From a virus: 41,512 bases of DNA. The stretch lies in UHGV virus genome UHGV-0155266; one strand, 5' to 3'. The stretch's first letter is position 1, and each line of letters opens with the position of its first letter. Below are positions 1 to 6,734 of the stretch, piece by piece. Both the position numbers and the translations under genes were made by a program. A model generated the notes under the pieces. It was not told the DNA's origin and did not search any database. It saw nothing but the letters and a program-made list of their open reading frames with translations.

Positions 1-49
1 ACAGTCGTGACACGACGCTGAAAGTTCCCAAACACACAGGAAACAGAAA

Positions 50-229
50 ATGAACGTGAATACTGAGATTTTGAAACTCTGGCAATCTAGGGGCGAAAAT
101 GAGCGCACCGGATTCGATGCGGAGAGGGTTGCAGATATTGCCTGGGAGCAGGGATTACAACTTCACCGCAACCGGCAGGAACATTACCAGCGAGTGATGT
201 ACCTCATAGGCCATCGCAATATCGGTTAA
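50..229 (+). CDS. small hypothetical protein (59 aa)
   Basis: ATG at 50 with AGGAAA 8 nt upstream, in-frame stop at 227-229, followed by a hairpin and T-run. Below the ORF-track length cutoff; no recognisable motif. Confidence 0.3.
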   Translation: MNVNTEILKLWQSRGENERTGFDAERVADIAWEQGLQLHRNRQEHYQRVMYLIGHRNIG

Positions 230-237
230 CTCATACA

Positions 238-258
238 GGCCGCGCATGCGGCCTTTTT
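238..258 (+). terminator. rho-independent terminator-like hairpin
   Basis: GGCCGC/GCGGCC stem (238-243 and 248-253) followed by TTTTT at 254-258; lies between the small ORF and the convergent 445-aa gene. Confidence 0.5.
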
Positions 259-1594
259 AGTCTGGATATTGAACATCTACTTCATTTTTTCTAATCTCTG
301 ATGAGATTTTTGAGCACGCTTTTATTAATTCATCCAAGACAATAGCGAGTTTGGCAAAATCATAATTGCTAAAACCCTTACTTCCTGGTTTTAGTTTCAT
401 GAATTTTTTCGTGTAATAGTCTTTATTTTCCAGCGCTCCTTGATAAGCATCACTTTCCTTTTTGTAATTTGACCACCGGATTTTCGCTTCATCATAATCA
501 GAAAATCTTAGATCCAGATAGCATTCAATCGCTACAGCCCGGCCATTGATGTTTTCATAGGTAACGCCGTGAGGACCAATAGCTGGAAATTGATTGAAAT
601 GAGGAAGATCAGGAAGATGAATGCAGCTAATATTGTGAGGCAATGCGAGTTTGCGGATTTTTTCATATGCCTCAATCCCTTCGCAATCATTATCTAACAC
701 GAAAACAATCAAGTTTTGAATGTCGATTTTTACGAGCCCAGCAGCGAACTTAACCAGATTTCCTGAACCAGTGAACGGGTACCCTTCACTCATGTCGATA
801 AAGTGAAAAAAATCTTCTACATCAGGCCGTAAGAGGTGCAATGCGTATTTGATGACGTTGGAGTCGGTGCTTCCCTCGGTGGCAATCAGGAACTTGTCAC
901 GTCTGCGAGCATTTACCTGAATATCTTTTATATTCGCATAACCAGCAGAAACTAGATCTCCGTAATCCCAAGTGACGAATTCATTATGATTATTTGGATT
1001 TTCGGCCAAAAGTCGCATCACTGAGTATGGATGTAGTATGCTAACTAAAGTCCCAAAAGCAGACTTTTCAGACCAAGCATTATCAAAGGCATTGTCGTAT
1101 TGGGGTATCCTGCTTAATAATTCATCATTATTAAATCGGCCCTTGATAAGCTCGCGTTCTTTTATTCTATCTTTTAAGCTAATATAATCATCGTTTAGCT
1201 CGCTAATATTTACGCTCTTGATGAAGTTAACGAATTCATCAAAGCTCATCATGTTACTAATTGGCTTTGCATATTCCGGACAGGATTCGTTAAATTCCTC
1301 TTGGTATTCAATTGAATCTTTAGCCATGAGTTCATACTCATAGCGTATATTTTCAAGGGTGAAACCCAACAATTCCAATCGGTAGGCAACTTGCCCCAAA
1401 GGCTTACGCAACACAGTACGACAGAGGATGCCATCAGGAGTGTCGAAGTCCTCTCCTTCCTCTATTTGATCTTCATTTAGTGGTTTGACGTGATGATCGG
1501 CACTTTGAAACAGGCCTCCATGATCTATACCCAGCGAGTTCTTACTCCAATCTAGCCCCACTCCTGACACTTCAAGAGAAATTACAGTACCCAT
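257..1594 (-). CDS. Toprim-domain protein with uncharacterised N-terminal half (candidate nuclease/defence effector)
   Basis: 445-aa ORF with AAGG upstream. Translation has EGxxD (LIATEGSTD, near aa 238-244) and DxDxxG (LDNDCEG, near aa 300-306) about 60 aa apart, the Toprim signature. No Walker A motif anywhere. Confidence 0.8.
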   Translation of the reverse strand: MGTVISLEVSGVGLDWSKNSLGIDHGGLFQSADHHVKPLNEDQIEEGEDFDTPDGILCRTVLRKPLGQVAYRLELLGFTLENIRYEYELMAKDSIEYQEEFNESCPEYAKPISNMMSFDEFVNFIKSVNISELNDDYISLKDRIKERELIKGRFNNDELLSRIPQYDNAFDNAWSEKSAFGTLVSILHPYSVMRLLAENPNNHNEFVTWDYGDLVSAGYANIKDIQVNARRRDKFLIATEGSTDSNVIKYALHLLRPDVEDFFHFIDMSEGYPFTGSGNLVKFAAGLVKIDIQNLIVFVLDNDCEGIEAYEKIRKLALPHNISCIHLPDLPHFNQFPAIGPHGVTYENINGRAVAIECYLDLRFSDYDEAKIRWSNYKKESDAYQGALENKDYYTKKFMKLKPGSKGFSNYDFAKLAIVLDELIKACSKISSEIRKNEVDVQYPD

Positions 1595-1975
1595 AGTTCA
1601 ACCTTTGAATGGCATTTTCCGTTGTACCGCAATACTACCAATACGCCGATTGGGCATCCATGATTTGAACTGGCTTCTATGCTCTATTTTTAGCAAATTG
1701 GACTTACGCCACCCTGGTTGCGTCTACTTCTCGCTCACAAGGAGCCCTCAGCAACGCTAGCTCGTCCGCGCCGTGCCAGAAGCGGACGTTGACAGCAACT
1801 CATAATGCAAATTTTCAGGGAGTGGATCGTCATGTACTGAATTGAGCCTAAGTTACAGATGATACTTGCTGTAAAAGCAGGAGAGGAATTATTTACTCTA
1901 TTGTGATAAGAGCGTTTTTATATTAATATCTTACATACAAATAGATATCTGAATAAACATTCAATAAGGTTCCAT

Positions 1976-2905
1976 ATGTCTGAAATAACTTCAGCTCCTG
2001 CTGTTATGGCGGCACTAGTATCTGCATTAGTTACGGTTTTATTATTTTTTATAAAAGGTGTATGCACACCTTTATGGAATAAATATTTCATTGTTTACAA
2101 AATCAAAGTTGAACATAGCTACGAACAAAAGAAGAAAATCAAAGAGGCGATATCAAAATATAAAATGCCTTTACTCGATTCAGCTGAGTCATTGAATCAT
2201 AGGTTGTGGAATTTTTCAGGAAATTGCACTAAAGGATGGCATAATTTCAAAAATAATGAATCAATTGGTGATAAATATTACCTACAAACTTTTTGTTATC
2301 GATTTTTAGCATTTTATGCTTGGTGTATAAAGTTCGAAAGAGAGTTGATATATTTAGATGTAACACTTTCAGAAAAGAACGATCTTTATTTTGTGAAGTA
2401 TATTAAAACCATGCAAAATATATTTTGCGATGCTTCGATGTTGAGTGGGACTGGTTATGATAATGAGCATGCTGTAGACCATTTTTTCAAGGATGACCTT
2501 ATTAGTATTGTGGAAAAAATGATTACACCTACAGGAGTTATTACTTATTCAGAATTCAAATCTAAATCAGAGTCTGAATTAGACTATACACAGGTTTGCA
2601 AGTACATATCCACCATAATGAGTGACAAATCTTGCAATAAATGGCATTTAATTAACTGTTTCCATTTTATCCTGATGGCCTTTTTGTCAAAGTATGGATA
2701 TGACTATCAAAGAACTGGGTTGTTTAAACTATATAAGCTGCGCTGCTCAGAACCTCAAAATAAGCTGATAAATAATTTTGAAAGGTTAGTATTCAATGCA
2801 AGATTAAATAAATGCAGAGAAATAAAGAAAGCAATAACTATTCTCGAATGCAAATCTAAAATTGCCAATCTCTGTAATTCCCTGAAATTAATAAAAGAGA
2901 ATTAG
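1976..2905 (+). CDS. hypothetical membrane-anchored protein (AT-rich accessory gene)
   Basis: 309-aa ORF with one hydrophobic N-terminal helix (PAVMAALVSALVTVLLFFI), Lys/Asn/Tyr/Cys-rich remainder, AT-rich codon usage; divergent from the Toprim gene. No HExxH, so not Lit. Confidence 0.7.
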   Translation: MSEITSAPAVMAALVSALVTVLLFFIKGVCTPLWNKYFIVYKIKVEHSYEQKKKIKEAISKYKMPLLDSAESLNHRLWNFSGNCTKGWHNFKNNESIGDKYYLQTFCYRFLAFYAWCIKFERELIYLDVTLSEKNDLYFVKYIKTMQNIFCDASMLSGTGYDNEHAVDHFFKDDLISIVEKMITPTGVITYSEFKSKSESELDYTQVCKYISTIMSDKSCNKWHLINCFHFILMAFLSKYGYDYQRTGLFKLYKLRCSEPQNKLINNFERLVFNARLNKCREIKKAITILECKSKIANLCNSLKLIKEN

Positions 2906-3034
2906 CTTGTGAAGCATAAAACTAGTTGTTCTGTACGATAGAAAATGAGAGAACCCAAGTCCGCATTGTGAATAGTGTTTGAGCTGAAAATATCGCTAAG
3001 ACCCTGAAAATTTTTTGGAGAAGCAGATTTTAAT

Positions 3035-3058
3035 GTCCGCTTCTCGCTCTAAGCGGAC
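3035..3058. terminator. bidirectional terminator-like hairpin between accessory gene and int
   Basis: GTCCGCTT/AAGCGGAC 8-bp stem with 8-nt loop, T-rich on both sides; sits between convergent genes ending at 2905 and 3119. Confidence 0.5.
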
Positions 3059-3118
3059 TGTTTGAAGCTTTTTCATGAGTGTTAAGAAAATCAAGATGGC
3101 GTTGAATCGCTTGAATTT

Positions 3119-4249
3119 TCACAAAGCTACTTTGCTCCAGCCTTTCCCACGGTCATCATGATAACGATCGGTTTGTTGCTGTGTTTTGTGACCAAGTAGT
3201 TTTTGTGTATCTAATCCCTGTTCCTTGTAAAGGCGTTCAGATAAAGATCGTTGCTCATGGAATGTGGCAGGTGAACCTTCCCCCCAGTTAATTTCTGCTA
3301 AATCTCTTGCTTTACTAAAATTCATCGTCAATGTATTGGATTTTACCTGTGCTCCACGTTCTGCCTGCGAAGTTGAACGGAAAAAATGCACTAAGTATGG
3401 GCTGACTGCATAGTCACGGCAGCGAGCTACTACATCACGTAAACTCCAGTTAATCGCATTGAGGCGAAGAGAAAGCGGAATTGCGATTTTGCTCCCTGTC
3501 TTTTCTTGTACGACATGAAGATGATCATCCCAAATATCGCTAAATTTCATACGTGAAATATCACCTAACCGCTGACCAGTAACCAAGGCTAGCAGCATGG
3601 CATTTCCCATGTAACGATGGCTGGCATCTGCGATATCGAATATTTTTTTCCATTCTTCGAGGCTCAGCCGTTGTCGGGTAATTTTTCTTCTTGGCTGTTT
3701 AGTAGCTAATGCAGGGTTATAGCCAGGAGGTACTTCTCCGTAGTGCTGCGCCTCTTTGAAAACATCAATCAGGACGGATCGAACTACTTGTGCCATTCTC
3801 GGTTGCCCAGCGGCAATATACTCATCAAGTAATTGTGCAATATCCCGGACATCAACAGCTGAAATTAGCTTCAATCCTGCCCGTTCTCTAAGTAAGGAGA
3901 CAGGTTTGGCTTTCTGCTTGTAGGTGTTGAGCTTTATATCACCACTTTTCAGCCTGTCATTCTGGATCGCTTGATAGCGATCTAACCAAGTTGACGTTGT
4001 GATTGCTTTCCCTTTGCTGGTTGCGATCCTGTCACTGATGGCCAGAATCTGCCGGGTTCTTTGTTCAGCCAGGCGCGTATTGGCTTCAGTGGCAATAGCG
4101 ATAGCTTCAGCTTCGTTTGTTCCCAAAGCATGGAATTTCCCTGTTATTGGATGCTTATACCGCCAATAGACTTTATTTACCTTTCGGCTATAAAGCGGAT
4201 ATAAGTTAGGGACTGAAACATTATTCTTACGCGGTCTGGCTGCCATCAC
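3119..4249 (-). CDS. int: tyrosine integrase (lambda Int family)
   Basis: 376-aa ORF with the lambda-integrase-like layout (N-terminal arm-binding region, C-terminal catalytic region ending with conserved His/Tyr context); overlaps xis 3' end. Start is GTG at 4249 or ATG at 4246. Confidence 0.9.
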   Translation of the reverse strand: MMAARPRKNNVSVPNLYPLYSRKVNKVYWRYKHPITGKFHALGTNEAEAIAIATEANTRLAEQRTRQILAISDRIATSKGKAITTSTWLDRYQAIQNDRLKSGDIKLNTYKQKAKPVSLLRERAGLKLISAVDVRDIAQLLDEYIAAGQPRMAQVVRSVLIDVFKEAQHYGEVPPGYNPALATKQPRRKITRQRLSLEEWKKIFDIADASHRYMGNAMLLALVTGQRLGDISRMKFSDIWDDHLHVVQEKTGSKIAIPLSLRLNAINWSLRDVVARCRDYAVSPYLVHFFRSTSQAERGAQVKSNTLTMNFSKARDLAEINWGEGSPATFHEQRSLSERLYKEQGLDTQKLLGHKTQQQTDRYHDDRGKGWSKVAL

Positions 4250-4472
4250 TCAAAATCCGTTGCAAAAGTAATGAGTCATTTTTCTTAATTACTGGTGTTA
4301 CCAGCTCTCCAACTAACTCGGCGTCCTCACGCACTCGCCATAACCGACCTTGTTTCATTGCCGGTGGACAAAACAAATTCTGCTTAGCATAACGACGCAA
4401 CGTGGAAACGCTTGGAGGATTACTTCTGTATTTTTCAGAAGCCCATTCTTCAAGAGTTAACATTTGAAGCAT
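4227..4472 (-). CDS. xis: excisionase (lambda Xis-like)
   Basis: 81-aa ORF immediately upstream of and overlapping int; TLEEW...RRYAKQNLFCPPAMKQGRLW resembles the lambda Xis winged-helix core; AAGGTG 7-8 nt before the ATG. Confidence 0.8.
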   Translation of the reverse strand: MLQMLTLEEWASEKYRSNPPSVSTLRRYAKQNLFCPPAMKQGRLWRVREDAELVGELVTPVIKKNDSLLLQRILSDGSQTA

Positions 4473-4965
4473 ATGCGATCACCTTATTACTTCAATAACT
4501 GTTCAGTCTCTGCGTATCGACCCTGCAAGGTCGGTTAGTTTCTCCACAAAACAGAGAAGAACACCTGCGATGACTGCCGCCTGGATGGATTGGGTTATGA
4601 GCCCGTCGTCCGGTGATGCTCTTCTCTGTTTTGTAAAAAGGATGGTACCAGCCGGAAGCAAGGGTACAAACTGGTACCGTCAAGACTACACACAGCATAA
4701 AGTTGTGGTTCCGGGTGCCTCCCGGTGCCTGGCGAAGGTTGCACACCAGACGGGTGGGTATCCACAGAAGGTCGACTGTCAGCCTCAACCTTAACCCGCG
4801 TGCGCTGAGCCGCATTCACCACAACGCTAAGGATTCTCTCTGGTTGAAAATACTTAGCTGTTATGTGCCTGCTTTTAGCCACATCAGGCGAGGTGGACCT
4901 GGTTATTCCCCAACAACAAGGATTCGGTTAATCTGGTTATCCCCAACAACGCAAAAGGAAAAGAA
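4473..4965. other. GC-rich structured non-coding segment (candidate ncRNA or cis-element)
   Basis: Four overlapping stop-free frames on both strands and no RBS-led protein-like ORF. Perfect 15-bp inverted repeat 4546-4560/4620-4634 with 59-nt loop; 8-bp inverted repeat 4644-4651/4671-4678; further short GC stems. Confidence 0.35.
4898..4950 (+). repeat. direct repeat pair CTGGTTAT(T)CCCCAACAAC upstream of ORF 4966
   Basis: cctggttattccccaacaac at 4898-4917 and tctggttatccccaacaac at 4932-4950, about 34 bp apart, just 5' of the ATG at 4966. Confidence 0.6.
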
Positions 4966-5400
4966 ATGTCCGGTAATATCTATACGCTGTACAAATCCCA
5001 CTGTGAAAATGTTGGAAAGTATCGGGGCATTGAAATCAGTGGGGTAGTGTCATCAGTCGAAATAAGCAAAGTTGAATCAAGGGCAACATTACTTACTCTT
5101 CTGGACCTTGTCTTACATGAGCACCGGAAGAAATTCGGCACTCCCTATAATCAGTTGAATGGGAAAAAAGCTCTGGTTCACCTTATTCTGATGAAGCATC
5201 ACTGGATGCCAAAACAGATTAATGAGATGAAATTTGATGAACTTCTTCTTTCAATTCAGGATGAACTCACGCTTGATAAAATAAGCGTAACCGCCCAGAA
5301 ATTTTTAGATTATCGAGACTGGAGATCACAAATTCATCACTTTGATGATTTTGACGAAAATGAATGGGATCCTAATTTGTCTGCACAATATCTAAAGTAA
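4966..5400 (+). CDS. hypothetical protein (144 aa)
   Basis: ORF with AAGGAAAAG before the ATG; protein-like composition; no recognisable motif. Confidence 0.6.
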   Translation: MSGNIYTLYKSHCENVGKYRGIEISGVVSSVEISKVESRATLLTLLDLVLHEHRKKFGTPYNQLNGKKALVHLILMKHHWMPKQINEMKFDELLLSIQDELTLDKISVTAQKFLDYRDWRSQIHHFDDFDENEWDPNLSAQYLK

Positions 5401-5578
5401 CATCCTGTGATAAAACCGTGATTTCCTGATCCAGTTTTTTTAAGGAGTCTATTGTTTCCTGTCGATAAGACAGCACTTCACGAAGCTGGTTTATAGCTGC
5501 CAGCTTCTTTGCCATCCACTCGTAAATTTCCTCATTTGTGTATCCGGGTGCGACGATTTTTGGTTCTGTTTTGTGCAT
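5372..5578 (-). CDS. small hypothetical protein (68 aa, predicted helical)
   Basis: ATG at 5578 preceded by GGAGG with a 6-nt spacer; convergent with ORF 4966-5400 and overlapping its 3' end by 29 bp. The track ORF starts at an upstream TTG (5593). Confidence 0.5.
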   Translation of the reverse strand: MHKTEPKIVAPGYTNEEIYEWMAKKLAAINQLREVLSYRQETIDSLKKLDQEITVLSQDVTLDIVQTN

Positions 5579-5637
5579 TTCACACCTCCTCAAGTTATCA
5601 GTTACTTGTTGATGGGGACCAGATTGTTAAAGAGCTA

Positions 5638-5660
5638 AGCGTCCTGTAGGGCGCTTTTTT
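5638..5660 (+). terminator. terminator-like hairpin
   Basis: AGCGTCC...GGGCGCT imperfect stem followed by TTTTTT at 5655-5660. Confidence 0.45.
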
Positions 5661-5843
5661 GTTGCTAACGAATCATCCTGGACTTCATATGCCCCAGGCG
5701 GCTACTTCGTGGGCGTCCTGCCTGTTCGTTGTTTTAACACCTTTAAGTTGTAATTTAGTTGTGGTTTTGAATGTTGTCAACAACTTTATGTGGTTTGAAC
5801 GAGTAGCCAAGGAGTGCAAGGATTATCAAAAAAAGGAGGTTGT

Positions 5844-6734
5844 ATGGAAGACGCGCTTTACGCTTTTAATTACACACAGAACCGGGACAAGTTATTTGCT
5901 AACTTGATTAGCATCATTGATGGAATCATTGCAGATGGAGTTGTCCGTGAAGAGGAGGTTCTTTACTTAGATACATGGTTACTTGAAGCAAAGCAGATTA
6001 TCAATAATGGAGTTATAAAAAGTCTATCAGCACGGGTGTCGGATATTCTTGCGGATGGAATAATCACATCAGAAGAACGTGATGACCTTAAAAATAGCCT
6101 TCTCCAAATACAGAGGGAAATTCTTGATATCCCTGAAATTGATTTTTACTCCAAGGATGTAGATGTCCATTTACTTAATGGACTATGTAAAGGATTAATT
6201 GCTGATCGGAACTTAACTCAAGAAGAAATAAGATATCTTAATTGGTGGCTTGAGCAAAATGGAGCTTTGAAGAACAACTACCCAGGAAAAAAACTTTATG
6301 CACTTGTAAAGGAAATTCTTAAAGATGGGGTTATTACTGAAGATGAGAGTTTAACTCTACATAAGGCATTAGTAGACTTCACAGGATGTGACTTGGAAAG
6401 TGGGGTGGTGGATGGTTTGGCGACCAGGCTGCCTATTGATGTAGGGGCTTCGATAGAGTTAGAGGGTAAAACCTATTGTCTTACAGGCACTTTTGTTGCA
6501 GGAAAGAGAGCCGTAGTTGAAAATTTGATTAAAAATGCTGGTGGGAACATCAGTAGTGGAATTACTCAAAAGTTGGATTTTTTAGTAATTGGGACGCTTT
6601 CCTCCCGTGATTGGAAATTCTCAAGTCACGGAAGGAAGATCGAAAAAGCTATATCTTATAGGGATGATAATGGTGCAAAACTTAAAATTATTTCTGAAGA
6701 AATGCTTTTCGATGCATTACCAAGTTCGCGATGA
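5844..6734 (+). CDS. BRCT-domain protein with four N-terminal tandem repeats
   Basis: ATG at 5844 after AGGAGG. C-terminus (GKTYCLTGTF...LDFLVIG...) follows the NAD-ligase-type BRCT pattern. N-terminus has four roughly 45-aa repeats sharing a D-G-[VI]-[VI]-T-x-[ED]-E motif. Confidence 0.75.
   Translation: MEDALYAFNYTQNRDKLFANLISIIDGIIADGVVREEEVLYLDTWLLEAKQIINNGVIKSLSARVSDILADGIITSEERDDLKNSLLQIQREILDIPEIDFYSKDVDVHLLNGLCKGLIADRNLTQEEIRYLNWWLEQNGALKNNYPGKKLYALVKEILKDGVITEDESLTLHKALVDFTGCDLESGVVDGLATRLPIDVGASIELEGKTYCLTGTFVAGKRAVVENLIKNAGGNISSGITQKLDFLVIGTLSSRDWKFSSHGRKIEKAISYRDDNGAKLKIISEEMLFDALPSSR

What the first reader, a model, noticed from the sequence alone, without database searches (positions are those of the whole stretch)
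257..1594. Integrase-adjacent standalone Toprim protein with an unrecognised N-terminal half: candidate anti-phage nuclease
The translation carries EGxxD (ATEGSTD) and DxDxxG (DNDCEG) about 60 residues apart, the Toprim metal-binding signature of OLD/DUF4435 nucleases, primases and topoisomerases. The N-terminal 230 aa have no motif I recognise, and there is no Walker A and no adjacent ATPase, so this is not a classical OLD, Gabija GajA or two-gene PARIS arrangement. It sits in the variable cargo slot beside int where K-12 e14 carries the abortive-infection protease lit.
Basis: partly seen in the sequence, partly recalled or inferred. Interest (0 to 1): 0.8.

Follow-up and report, generated by a model that had tools for sequence, protein, structure and literature searches.

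The report
ATPase-less Toprim nuclease in prophage hotspot
This gene encodes a member of an already catalogued but never tested protein family: a sensor-like N-terminal domain fused to a metal-dependent Toprim nuclease, carried as cargo in a prophage hotspot that normally holds an anti-phage suicide gene, so it is a reasonable but not surprising candidate anti-phage defence gene.

Summary
The ORF is real: window 257-1594, minus strand, 445 aa. The Toprim motifs are ATEGSTD at residue 238 and DNDCEG at residue 301, and their acidic residues are invariant in 40 diverse homologs. There is no Walker A motif and no adjacent ATPase. The gene lies in the icd-intE slot, where K-12 e14 has ymfD-ymfE-lit.

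The N-terminal half is not unrecognised. It matches Pfam PF18871, "HEPN/Toprim N-terminal domain 1" (E=1.7e-48). Anantharaman et al. 2013 listed this NTD1+TOPRIM architecture as Abi-like, and RefSeq names the protein accordingly.

New results here:
- The AF2 model is confident (pLDDT 91).
- No neighbour gene recurs in more than 5 of 80 loci.
- The gene sits on prophages, ICEs, plasmids and islands, often beside Abi, TA, RM, TIR or Gabija-like genes.
- No experimental paper and no PADLOC model was found.

Most likely it is a self-contained abortive-infection-type nuclease in which the NTD gates the Toprim. The substrate (tRNA or other RNA, versus DNA) and the trigger are inferred only. It is a new member of a computationally known kind, of moderate interest.

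The parts
257..1594 (-). CDS of 445 aa: HEPN/Toprim-NTD1 + Toprim single-polypeptide candidate nuclease (RefSeq WP_052908306 in an identical genome)
   Evidence: ORF. 100% DNA match annotated 'HEPN/Toprim-associated domain-containing protein'. 986 full-length homologs.
902..1594 (-). N-terminal domain, residues 1-231 (HEPN/Toprim-NTD1, PF18871). Alpha+beta. Invariant polar residues K18, N19, H25, Q30, D33, R72. Hypervariable helices at about residues 81-160.
605..901 (-). Toprim core, residues about 232-330, with the metal-binding acidic residues
863..883 (-). ATEGSTD (residues 238-244): Toprim Glu E240 and D244 (E-x3-D)
   Evidence: Read directly. Invariant. Same E-x3-D pattern as the Eco2 catalytic residues E374/D378 (PMC12916289).
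677..694 (-). DNDCEG (residues 301-306): Toprim DxD (D301, D303) plus E305
   Evidence: Read directly. Invariant. Corresponds to Eco2 D460/D462.
257..604 (-). C-terminal extension, residues 331-445 (beta-strands then long helices), with invariant E357 and D361 (IECYLD)
   Evidence: Secondary structure. Invariants. 189 residues align with the Eco2 Toprim region, more than the core of about 100-115 aa that aligns with other Toprims.
237..254 (.). GC-rich hairpin AGGCCGCGCATGCGGCCT, flanked by a T-run on the plus strand. It lies between the convergent stops of p59 and the Toprim gene and is a likely bidirectional terminator.
   Evidence: Consensus scan. The scan found 2 terminator-like sites against 1.9 expected in shuffles, so the support is positional only.
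50..229 (+). 59-aa ORF, convergent and 27 bp from the Toprim stop: a clade-specific passenger, not a family-wide partner
   Evidence: Present with all copies of at least 87% identity (E. coli, Mixta, K. aerogenes plasmid, Citrobacter). Truncated to its last 25 codons in E. coli P393-F10, where the Toprim gene is intact. Absent from the 70% copy and beyond. No family hit.
1976..2905 (+). 309-aa ORF (hydrophobic N-terminal stretch by eye, GC about 0.31), divergent from the Toprim gene and in the position lit occupies in K-12: co-cargo of unknown function
   Evidence: No Pfam or PADLOC hit. Not related to Lit. Travels with the Toprim gene only in E. coli, in two different islands. Absent from all other loci.
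3119..4249 (-). intE integrase, the conserved boundary of the variable slot. Homology with other e14-like prophages resumes at about 3031-3114.
   Evidence: Pfam Arm-DNA-bind_1 plus Phage_integrase. Match start coordinates. Synteny.

Best explanation
The gene encodes a self-contained, ATPase-independent conflict or defence effector of the catalogued HEPN/Toprim-NTD1-Toprim family. It is carried as cargo in the attL-int hotspot of an e14-like prophage.

Proposed mechanism:
- The C-terminal Toprim domain is a two-metal nuclease of the nuclease branch that includes OLD and retron Eco2. Residues E240, D244, D301 and D303 bind the metals, probably helped by E305, E357 and D361.
- The N-terminal NTD1 domain of about 230 aa evolves faster and has a fold without solved relatives. 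It keeps the nuclease inactive and releases it on sensing an infection cue.
- Once active, the nuclease cuts an essential nucleic acid. By analogy with P2 OLD, AriB and Eco2 this is most likely the duplex stems of tRNA or another structured RNA; less likely it is DNA, as for GajA. The cut arrests the cell and aborts the infection.

Shown here: the domain composition, invariance of the catalytic residues, the Toprim fold, absence of an ATPase or any conserved partner, the mobile-element and hotspot location, and rarity with horizontal spread.

Inferred only: nuclease activity, gating by the NTD, the substrate, the trigger and the anti-phage phenotype.
For: Domain composition and fold:
- PF18871 covers residues 1-231 at E=1.7e-48.
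- The Toprim acidic residues are invariant in 40 homologs.
- The AF2 model has pLDDT 91 and pTM 0.88.

Known relatives:
- Eco2, AriB and P2 OLD Toprims are tRNases in defence (PMC12916289, PMC12409363, PMC12445682).
- Anantharaman et al. 2013 list NTD1 fused to HEPN, TOPRIM or Mrr nucleases and call the architecture Abi-like.

Autonomy:
- No neighbour ORF family occurs in more than 5 of 80 loci within 4 kb.
- 65 of 66 full-length NTD relatives carry the same Toprim half.

Context:
- The icd-intE slot varies between prophages that are otherwise syntenic, and its best-known cargo is Lit.
- Homologs lie at a prophage end beside Mrr and HATPase genes.
- One lies in an ICE beside AbiV, AbiE and a DEAD/MZB helicase.
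- One lies in a CP4-like island near an AAA_15 ATPase.
- Plasmid copies lie beside a restriction endonuclease and relBE, beside AbiEii, beside a CBASS phospholipase, and beside a Gabija-like pair plus AbiJ-NTD4.
- Nearest neighbours in 80 genomes include integrases, TIR, UvrD, DUF488, HipA, AbiH and RhuM, whereas genes 8-10 kb away are mostly housekeeping.

Distribution and divergence:
- Only 5 of 5,426 complete E. coli genomes carry the gene, in three different contexts and at low GC.
- Mean pairwise identity is 0.45 for the NTD and 0.68 for the Toprim core.
Against: - No experiment on any family member was found.
- No PADLOC model matches.
- The PADLOC near-versus-far neighbour comparison did not discriminate: 146 versus 164 model families. 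Defence-island enrichment is therefore qualitative, with no genome-wide background.
- The Toprim assignment never reaches a curated sequence threshold. The best Pfam E-value among 40 members is 0.0015, and the C-terminal profile finds no PDB sequence. It rests on motifs plus predicted structure.
- The HEPN and Mrr fusions of NTD1, which are the basis for calling it a swappable sensor, were not recovered here.
- I could not inspect model coordinates, so gating by the NTD is conjecture.
- A toxic nuclease with no antitoxin could instead be regulated at the level of expression.
- The consensus scan found no promoter for the gene.
Confidence: 0.6

Rival explanations
1. It is a mobile-element addiction or inter-element competition toxin, for example plasmid or ICE stabilisation or exclusion of rival plasmids, and not an anti-phage system. 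The same Toprim nuclease would kill or arrest cells that lose or gain particular elements.
For: 50 plasmid records carry relatives, 17 of them conjugative. The gene is frequently adjacent to TA modules such as relBE, HipA, AbiE and CbtA/CbeA and to T4SS genes. It is almost absent from sequenced phage genomes.
Against: No antitoxin-like partner is conserved. The gene also sits in prophages at classic moron or defence slots. TA and Abi neighbours are themselves typical of defence islands. The two roles are not mutually exclusive.
Confidence: 0.15
2. It is one half of a two-gene system with the divergent 309-aa protein (window 1976-2905) and/or the convergent 59-aa protein (window 50-229), which would act as sensor, membrane effector or antitoxin.
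For: The block at window 155-3058, holding the Toprim gene and p309, is 99.8% identical in two E. coli genomes in a different island with two integrases near hipA. p59 accompanies every copy of at least 87% identity in four genera, at a fixed 27-bp distance.
Against: p309 is absent from the 97.5%-identical copies in Mixta and on a K. aerogenes plasmid, and from all other loci. p59 is truncated where the Toprim gene is intact and is absent from the 70% copy onward. No neighbour family recurs in more than 5 of 80 loci. Convergent or divergent orientation is atypical for an operon partner.
Confidence: 0.1
3. It is a DNA-processing enzyme serving the mobile element itself, such as a primase-like, nickase or topoisomerase-like activity in replication, transfer or recombination.
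Against: Only the Toprim core of about 110-133 residues aligns with primases. There is no zinc-binding, primase RNA-polymerase or helicase-binding domain. The gene lies in the cargo slot, not the replication module, and that slot is replaced by unrelated genes in otherwise syntenic prophages. It is carried by very different element types with no conserved partner.
Confidence: 0.07
4. It is a decaying or inactive cargo gene with no current function.
For: It is rare in E. coli, with a truncated remnant in strain ECONIH5. No promoter was detected by the consensus scan.
Against: The reading frame is intact. All catalytic and many NTD residues are invariant over phylum-level distances. Copies are 97-100% identical across four genera, implying recent transfer of an intact gene.
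Confidence: 0.03

Closest known systems
HEPN/Toprim-NTD1 + TOPRIM proteins (Pfam PF18871 family; Anantharaman, Makarova, Burroughs, Koonin, Aravind 2013, Biol Direct 8:15)
   Same: Same two-domain architecture, length and collinear homology. The N-terminal domain scores 165.9 bits against the family model. RefSeq already uses the family name for this exact protein.
   Different: Nothing structural differs; this protein is a member. The family itself is known only from comparative genomics, with no tested function, substrate, trigger or structure. The HEPN- and Mrr-fused versions listed in 2013 were not recovered in my searches.
Retron Eco2 (Ec67) RT-Toprim fusion (PDB 9i2f/9lm3; PMC12916289)
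   Different: Eco2's gate is a reverse transcriptase plus an msDNA cage. Here there is no RT domain and no retron ncRNA (no Rfam hit). Sequence identity is only 18% over the aligned residues, and no sequence-level match was found.
OLD-family nucleases: P2 OLD and TsOLD (class 1), GajA of Gabija (class 2), retron Eco8 OLD (class 3), PARIS AriA/AriB (class 4)
   Different: All OLD classes couple the Toprim to an ABC ATPase, either fused or encoded next door. This protein has no Walker A, no ATPase domain and no ATPase neighbour. No OLD, DUF4435 or PADLOC GajA/AriB model matches.
Lit, the abortive-infection protease of K-12 e14
   Same: Lit is cargo of the same attL-intE slot of e14-like prophages and is a single-gene, self-contained suicide effector triggered by phage infection.
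   Different: It is an unrelated protein: a zinc metalloprotease that cleaves EF-Tu (established knowledge). The gene in Lit's exact position here is the unrelated 309-aa ORF.
RNase M5 and small Toprim proteins (PDB 6tg6/6z2b, 2i5r)
   Different: These are short housekeeping enzymes of Bacillota (5S rRNA maturation for RNase M5) without the NTD1 domain. They are not sporadic mobile cargo.

Membership tests
HEPN/Toprim-NTD1-Toprim family (PF18871 architecture) | N-terminal HEPN/Toprim-NTD1 domain above Pfam's gathering score | tested here: met
   165.9 bits against a cutoff of 25, residues 1-231 covering model positions 1-221 of 223. All 40 aligned homologs match.
HEPN/Toprim-NTD1-Toprim family (PF18871 architecture) | C-terminal Toprim domain with conserved Glu and DxD | tested here: met
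HEPN/Toprim-NTD1-Toprim family (PF18871 architecture) | Full-length collinear homology to other members (about 430-450 aa) | tested here: met
   986 hits. The top 120 cover 97-100% of the query at 45-89% identity. 65 of 66 full-length NTD relatives carry the same C-terminal half.
OLD-family nucleases (classes 1-4, including GajA and AriA/AriB) | ABC ATPase domain with Walker A, fused N-terminally or encoded by the adjacent gene | tested here: not met
   No [AG]xxxxGK[ST] motif. No ATPase Pfam, NCBIfam or PADLOC hit. The neighbours are 59-aa and 309-aa proteins without family.
OLD-family nucleases (classes 1-4, including GajA and AriA/AriB) | Toprim domain with acidic two-metal site | tested here: met
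OLD-family nucleases (classes 1-4, including GajA and AriA/AriB) | Match to OLD-type/DUF4435 Toprim or PADLOC GajA/AriB models | tested here: not met
   No such family at E<=1 in Pfam for any of 40 members. No PADLOC hit for the query. Only three weak single-member PADLOC hits across 40 members: PD-Lambda-5_A, SspC and BnzA.
Gabija (GajA + GajB) | Adjacent UvrD-like helicase GajB | tested here: not met
   No helicase in window 1-6000. UvrD-like neighbours occur in only 3 of 128 nearest-neighbour genes of homologs.
Retron type I-C (Eco2-like RT-Toprim) | N-terminal reverse transcriptase domain | tested here: not met
   No RVT family hit. The N-terminal half is PF18871.
Retron type I-C (Eco2-like RT-Toprim) | Adjacent msr/msd non-coding RNA | tested here: not met
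   No Rfam family reaches its gathering score anywhere in the window. No notable inverted repeats flank the gene.
Retron type I-C (Eco2-like RT-Toprim) | Toprim nuclease domain structurally like Eco2 | tested here: met
DnaG-type primase | Zinc-binding domain, primase RNA-polymerase subdomain (Toprim_N) and helicase-interaction domain | tested here: not met
   None detected at E<=1 in Pfam. Only 109-133 residues, the Toprim core, align with the T7, Aquifex and Bacillus primases.
Anti-phage defence system (functional class) | Protection against phage infection that depends on the catalytic residues | not testable with these tools
   Only contextual evidence exists. No experimental report was found.

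The most novel reading that the evidence does not exclude
NTD1 is a new-fold, direct infection sensor that gates a tRNA- or RNA-cleaving Toprim within one polypeptide. That would be a third control logic for immune Toprim nucleases, after ABC-ATPase switches (OLD, Gabija, PARIS) and RT-msDNA cages (retron Eco2). It would make this a minimal one-protein sensor-effector that could be retargeted through its hypervariable helices (residues about 81-160).
Probability: 0.3. Interest if true: 0.65.

Novelty: new member of a known kind. Interest (0 to 1): 0.42.

Why it matters
If the prediction holds, this would be the first functional data for a family that has sat in the databases since 2013. Only 238 cluster representatives (50% identity) match the N-terminal domain at E<=0.001, yet the loci fetched here span at least seven bacterial phyla. 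It would show that a Toprim immune nuclease can be controlled without an ATPase or a retron. It would add a compact single-gene system to the defence catalogue; PADLOC has no model for it, and a 2026 E. coli domain-centric screen excluded single-gene systems. It would also give a function to an N-terminal domain with no solved structural relative. Finally, it documents the icd-intE end of e14-like prophages as an exchangeable cargo hotspot comparable to the P2/P4 hotspots. If the prediction fails, the gene is simply another uncharacterised piece of mobile-element cargo.

Tried and rejected
- NCBIfam gave no hit. PHROGs gave only a weak hit to a family of unknown function (E 0.0035). PADLOC gave nothing for the query.
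- Sequence-profile searches of the PDB found nothing meaningful, either with the full-length alignment (chance hits only) or with the C-terminal-half alignment (zero hits at E<=10). The Toprim link to solved proteins is therefore structural only.
- I tried to measure defence-island enrichment by scanning nearest against distant neighbours with PADLOC. The output was swamped by redundant GajB models, and distant genes also hit defence models (146 versus 164 families). I judged it uninformative. The Pfam version of the same comparison is only qualitative.
- I tried to recover NTD1 fused to HEPN or Mrr effectors with an exhaustive phmmer search of 1.84 billion representatives. Among the 150 listed hits, 65 of the 66 proteins of at least 300 aa have the same Toprim half. 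The exception is a 1,520-aa protein with nine weak stretches. The 88 weaker hits were not listed.
- I considered p309 as a Lit analogue and rejected it: there is no similarity.
- I considered p59 and p309 as partners and rejected them as family-wide partners.
- The single phage-database hit (MT836369, an unverified metagenomic scaffold) has a fragmented frame and added nothing.
- The promoter scan found no convincing promoter upstream of the gene, and I did not assign one by eye.
- Rfam and tRNA scans of the window were empty.
- Literature searches for the Pfam accession, the domain names, the protein accessions and 'standalone Toprim' found only the 2013 paper.
Full report
**1. Observation**

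Window 257-1594 holds a 445-aa ATG-to-stop ORF on the minus strand. ATEGSTD begins at residue 238 (window 863-883) and DNDCEG at residue 301 (window 677-694). The Toprim Glu and the DxD are therefore about 61 residues apart, and there is no Walker A motif. In an alignment of 40 homologs that are 44-87% identical to the query, E240, D244, D301, D303 and E305 are invariant. So are D267, D291, E357 and D361. The motifs are conserved features, not chance.

The window is an e14-like prophage integrated at icd. Positions 1-5000 are 100% identical to E. coli PS1Thumoskin9, where the order is icd, a 59-aa ORF, this gene, a 309-aa ORF, intE and xisE. In K-12 the same interval holds ymfD, ymfE and lit.

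**2. What the N-terminal half is**

It is not unrecognised. Residues 1-231 match Pfam PF18871, 'HEPN/Toprim N-terminal domain 1', at E=1.7e-48 (165.9 bits against a cutoff of 25). Anantharaman et al. 2013 (PMC3710099) defined this alpha+beta domain of about 240 aa. They listed its fusions to two HEPN families, to a TOPRIM nuclease and to an Mrr-type endonuclease, and noted that the architectures resemble abortive-infection proteins. NCBI's pipeline already names this exact protein 'HEPN/Toprim-associated domain-containing protein'.

No other paper in the searchable library mentions the Pfam accession, the domain name or the protein accessions. I found no experimental study of an ATPase-less Toprim defence protein of this type. 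A 2026 E. coli domain-centric screen explicitly dropped single-gene candidates.

**3. The C-terminal half**

Curated sequence models do not reach threshold. However, Toprim_2, Toprim_4 and Toprim recur below threshold in 27, 19 and 7 of 40 family members. No OLD-type or DUF4435 model appears even at E<=1. Profiles of the whole protein or of the C-terminal half find no solved relative by sequence.

Many CheY-like receiver domains fill the rest of the list; they share the generic three-layer sandwich. Foldseek also ranks Eco2 first.

The Eco2 catalytic residues E374/D378/D460/D462 form the same E-x3-D and DxD pattern as E240/D244/D301/D303 here. Primases align only over the Toprim core, and no primase accessory domain is present, so this is not a DnaG-type primase.

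**4. The N-terminal domain as a structure**

Across the family the NTD diverges faster than the nuclease. Mean pairwise identity is 0.45 for the NTD and 0.68 for the Toprim core, and the least conserved blocks are the helices at about residues 81-160. One Rhizobium plasmid member keeps 38% identity in the Toprim half but only 22% in the NTD. Conserved effector with faster-evolving partner domain is what a recognition or regulatory domain would show. It is not proof.

**5. One gene or a system?**

The family is modest in size but widespread:
- 986 clusters at 90% identity in the word-indexed search.
- 238 representatives at 50% identity for the NTD among 1.84 billion proteins.
- Of the 66 listed representatives of at least 300 aa, 65 carry the same Toprim half.

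Loci from one genome per species span Alpha-, Beta- and Gammaproteobacteria, Acidobacteriota, Actinomycetota, Verrucomicrobiota, Desulfobacterota and Bdellovibrionota. Weaker relatives occur on Leptospira, Streptomyces, Micrococcus and Lactiplantibacillus plasmids, and they still keep an N-terminal region of about 200 aa with residual NTD similarity.

Within 4 kb of the gene in 80 loci, no neighbour ORF family recurs in more than 5 loci.

The 59-aa ORF follows every copy of at least 87% identity in four genera, at a fixed 27-bp distance. It is truncated in two E. coli genomes where the Toprim gene is intact, and it is absent at 70% identity and beyond. The 309-aa ORF accompanies the gene only in E. 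coli. It is missing next to the 97.5%-identical copies in Mixta and on a Klebsiella aerogenes IncP plasmid. The conserved unit is the single gene.

**6. Context**

The gene is rare and mobile. It is intact in 5 of 5,426 complete E. coli genomes, in three settings: two e14-like prophages, two copies in an island with two integrases near hipA, and an IncX7 plasmid. One further genome has a remnant. GC is 0.37-0.42 over the gene and 0.31 over the 309-aa ORF.

Relatives lie in these settings:
- At the end of a Klebsiella prophage, next to Mrr and HATPase genes.
- In a Bradyrhizobium ICE, next to AbiV, AbiEi/AbiEii and a DEAD/MZB helicase.
- In a Citrobacter CP4-like island, near an AAA_15 ATPase.
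- On plasmids, beside a restriction endonuclease and relBE, beside AbiEii, beside a CBASS phospholipase, and between a Gabija-like ATPase/UvrD pair and an AbiJ-NTD4 protein.

Among 128 nearest-neighbour genes in 80 genomes, the recurrent Pfam families are integrases, UvrD helicases, TIR, DUF488, HipA and T4SS coupling proteins. AbiH and RhuM occur once each. The outermost genes 8-10 kb away are mostly housekeeping. A PADLOC version of this comparison was not informative.

The icd-intE slot itself is a cargo hotspot. Five other e14-like prophages with the same intE-xisE backbone carry either ymfD-ymfE-lit, an 848-aa protein plus a DUF2357 protein, three hypotheticals with IS remnants, or a 366-aa protein plus an 858-aa AAA ATPase.

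**7. Mechanism**

Established knowledge of related enzymes:
- Toprim nucleases use acidic residues to bind two metal ions (PMC10568477, PMC12409363).
- In defence, P2 OLD severs tRNA anticodon stems (PMC12445682).
- AriB nicks the tRNA-Lys anticodon stem.
- Eco2 nicks tRNA acceptor stems after its msDNA cage is degraded.
- GajA cuts DNA in vitro.

In all of these the nuclease is held in check by an ABC ATPase or by an RT-msDNA scaffold. Here the only available regulator is the NTD.

My best-supported reading, at a confidence of about 0.6, is a one-protein abortive-infection-type effector. NTD1 keeps the Toprim off and releases it on an infection cue, and the Toprim then cuts an essential nucleic acid. 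I consider structured RNA or tRNA somewhat more likely than DNA, because the closest structure is Eco2.

The domain content, catalytic invariance, fold, autonomy and mobile context are shown. Activity, gating, substrate, trigger and phenotype are inferred.

Rival readings are:
- an addiction or inter-element competition toxin (0.15)
- a two-gene system with p309 or p59 (0.10)
- a DNA-processing enzyme serving the element (0.07)
- dead cargo (0.03)

**8. Comparison and novelty**

This protein is a member of the catalogued HEPN/Toprim-NTD1-Toprim family; all defining features tested here are met. It works like the OLD, PARIS and Eco2 Toprim effectors but is not a member of those families. The ATPase, the helicase partner, the RT, the ncRNA and the family-specific models were all tested and not met.

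Relative to experimentally characterised systems it would be an ATPase-less variant. Relative to the literature and databases it is a new member of a known, untested kind. What remains of interest is that the family is untested, its sensor-like domain has an orphan fold, and it sits in a hotspot whose classic cargo is Lit.

Interest is 0.42. The most novel reading not excluded is a new-fold direct sensor gating a tRNA-cutting Toprim without an ATPase or a retron. I give it a probability of about 0.3, and an interest of about 0.65 if true.

Noticed in passing
window 1976-2905 (+): A 309-aa ORF with a hydrophobic N-terminal stretch (by eye), very low GC (about 0.31) and no Pfam or PADLOC hit. 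It sits exactly where lit sits in K-12 e14 but is unrelated to Lit. It travels with the Toprim gene as a block (window 155-3058, 99.8% identity) in a different E. coli island near hipA, and is absent from every other locus examined. It may be an independent cargo or defence candidate.
   Followed up: partly
window 50-229 (+): A 59-aa ORF convergent with the Toprim gene, sharing the hairpin at 237-254. It is conserved (80-98% aa identity) next to all Toprim copies of at least 87% identity in E. coli, Mixta, Klebsiella aerogenes (plasmid) and Citrobacter. It is truncated in two E. coli genomes and absent from more distant loci. No family hit.
   Followed up: yes
window 5814-6734 (+): A BRCT-domain protein (Pfam BRCT, E 1.4e-6) that also matches the PADLOC phage-defence candidate model PDC-S48 (E 2.7e-7). 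It is another possible defence-related cargo gene in the early region of the prophage.
   Followed up: no
window ~5480; L001 13482-14644: The genome that matches window 1-5000 at 100% (PS1Thumoskin9) has an IS3 insertion of about 1.26 kb just after the ECs1072-family gene. The window lacks it: the BRCT gene is 1,261 bp closer. The window therefore comes from a different, IS-free copy of this prophage.
   Followed up: partly
window 1722-1736 and 3035-3049: A 15-nt direct repeat (GTCTACTTCTCGCTC / GTCCGCTTCTCGCTC, 87%). The second copy coincides with the point (about 3031-3058) where homology to other e14-like prophages resumes and where the shared Toprim+p309 block ends. It could be a chance match or a recombination scar at the cassette boundary.
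   Followed up: no
L107-L111 (icd-intE interval of other E. coli e14-like prophages): The same slot holds alternative cargo in otherwise syntenic prophages: ymfD-ymfE-lit; an 848-aa hypothetical plus a 623-aa DUF2357 protein; a 366-aa hypothetical plus an 858-aa AAA ATPase; three hypotheticals with IS remnants. Several look like untested defence candidates.
   Followed up: partly
L002 7682-9704 (Klebsiella prophage end): Directly downstream of the Klebsiella homolog lies a conserved trio: Mrr_cat nuclease (294 aa), HATPase_c protein (236 aa) and a small protein with a faint receiver-domain signal (139 aa). This looks like a separate candidate defence module.
   Followed up: no
L105 1-5085 (Lactiplantibacillus plantarum conjugative plasmid): A distant 407-aa relative (Toprim half E 3.7e-16, NTD signal marginal) lies between an AAA ATPase + UvrD helicase pair (Gabija-like) and an AbiJ-NTD4 protein. 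It extends the architecture to Bacillota in a clear defence cluster.
   Followed up: partly
P0245 (1,520 aa): The only long NTD-search hit without the Toprim half. It matches through nine short stretches to NTD residues about 171-216, so it is probably a repeat protein or a spurious match. It was not examined.
   Followed up: no
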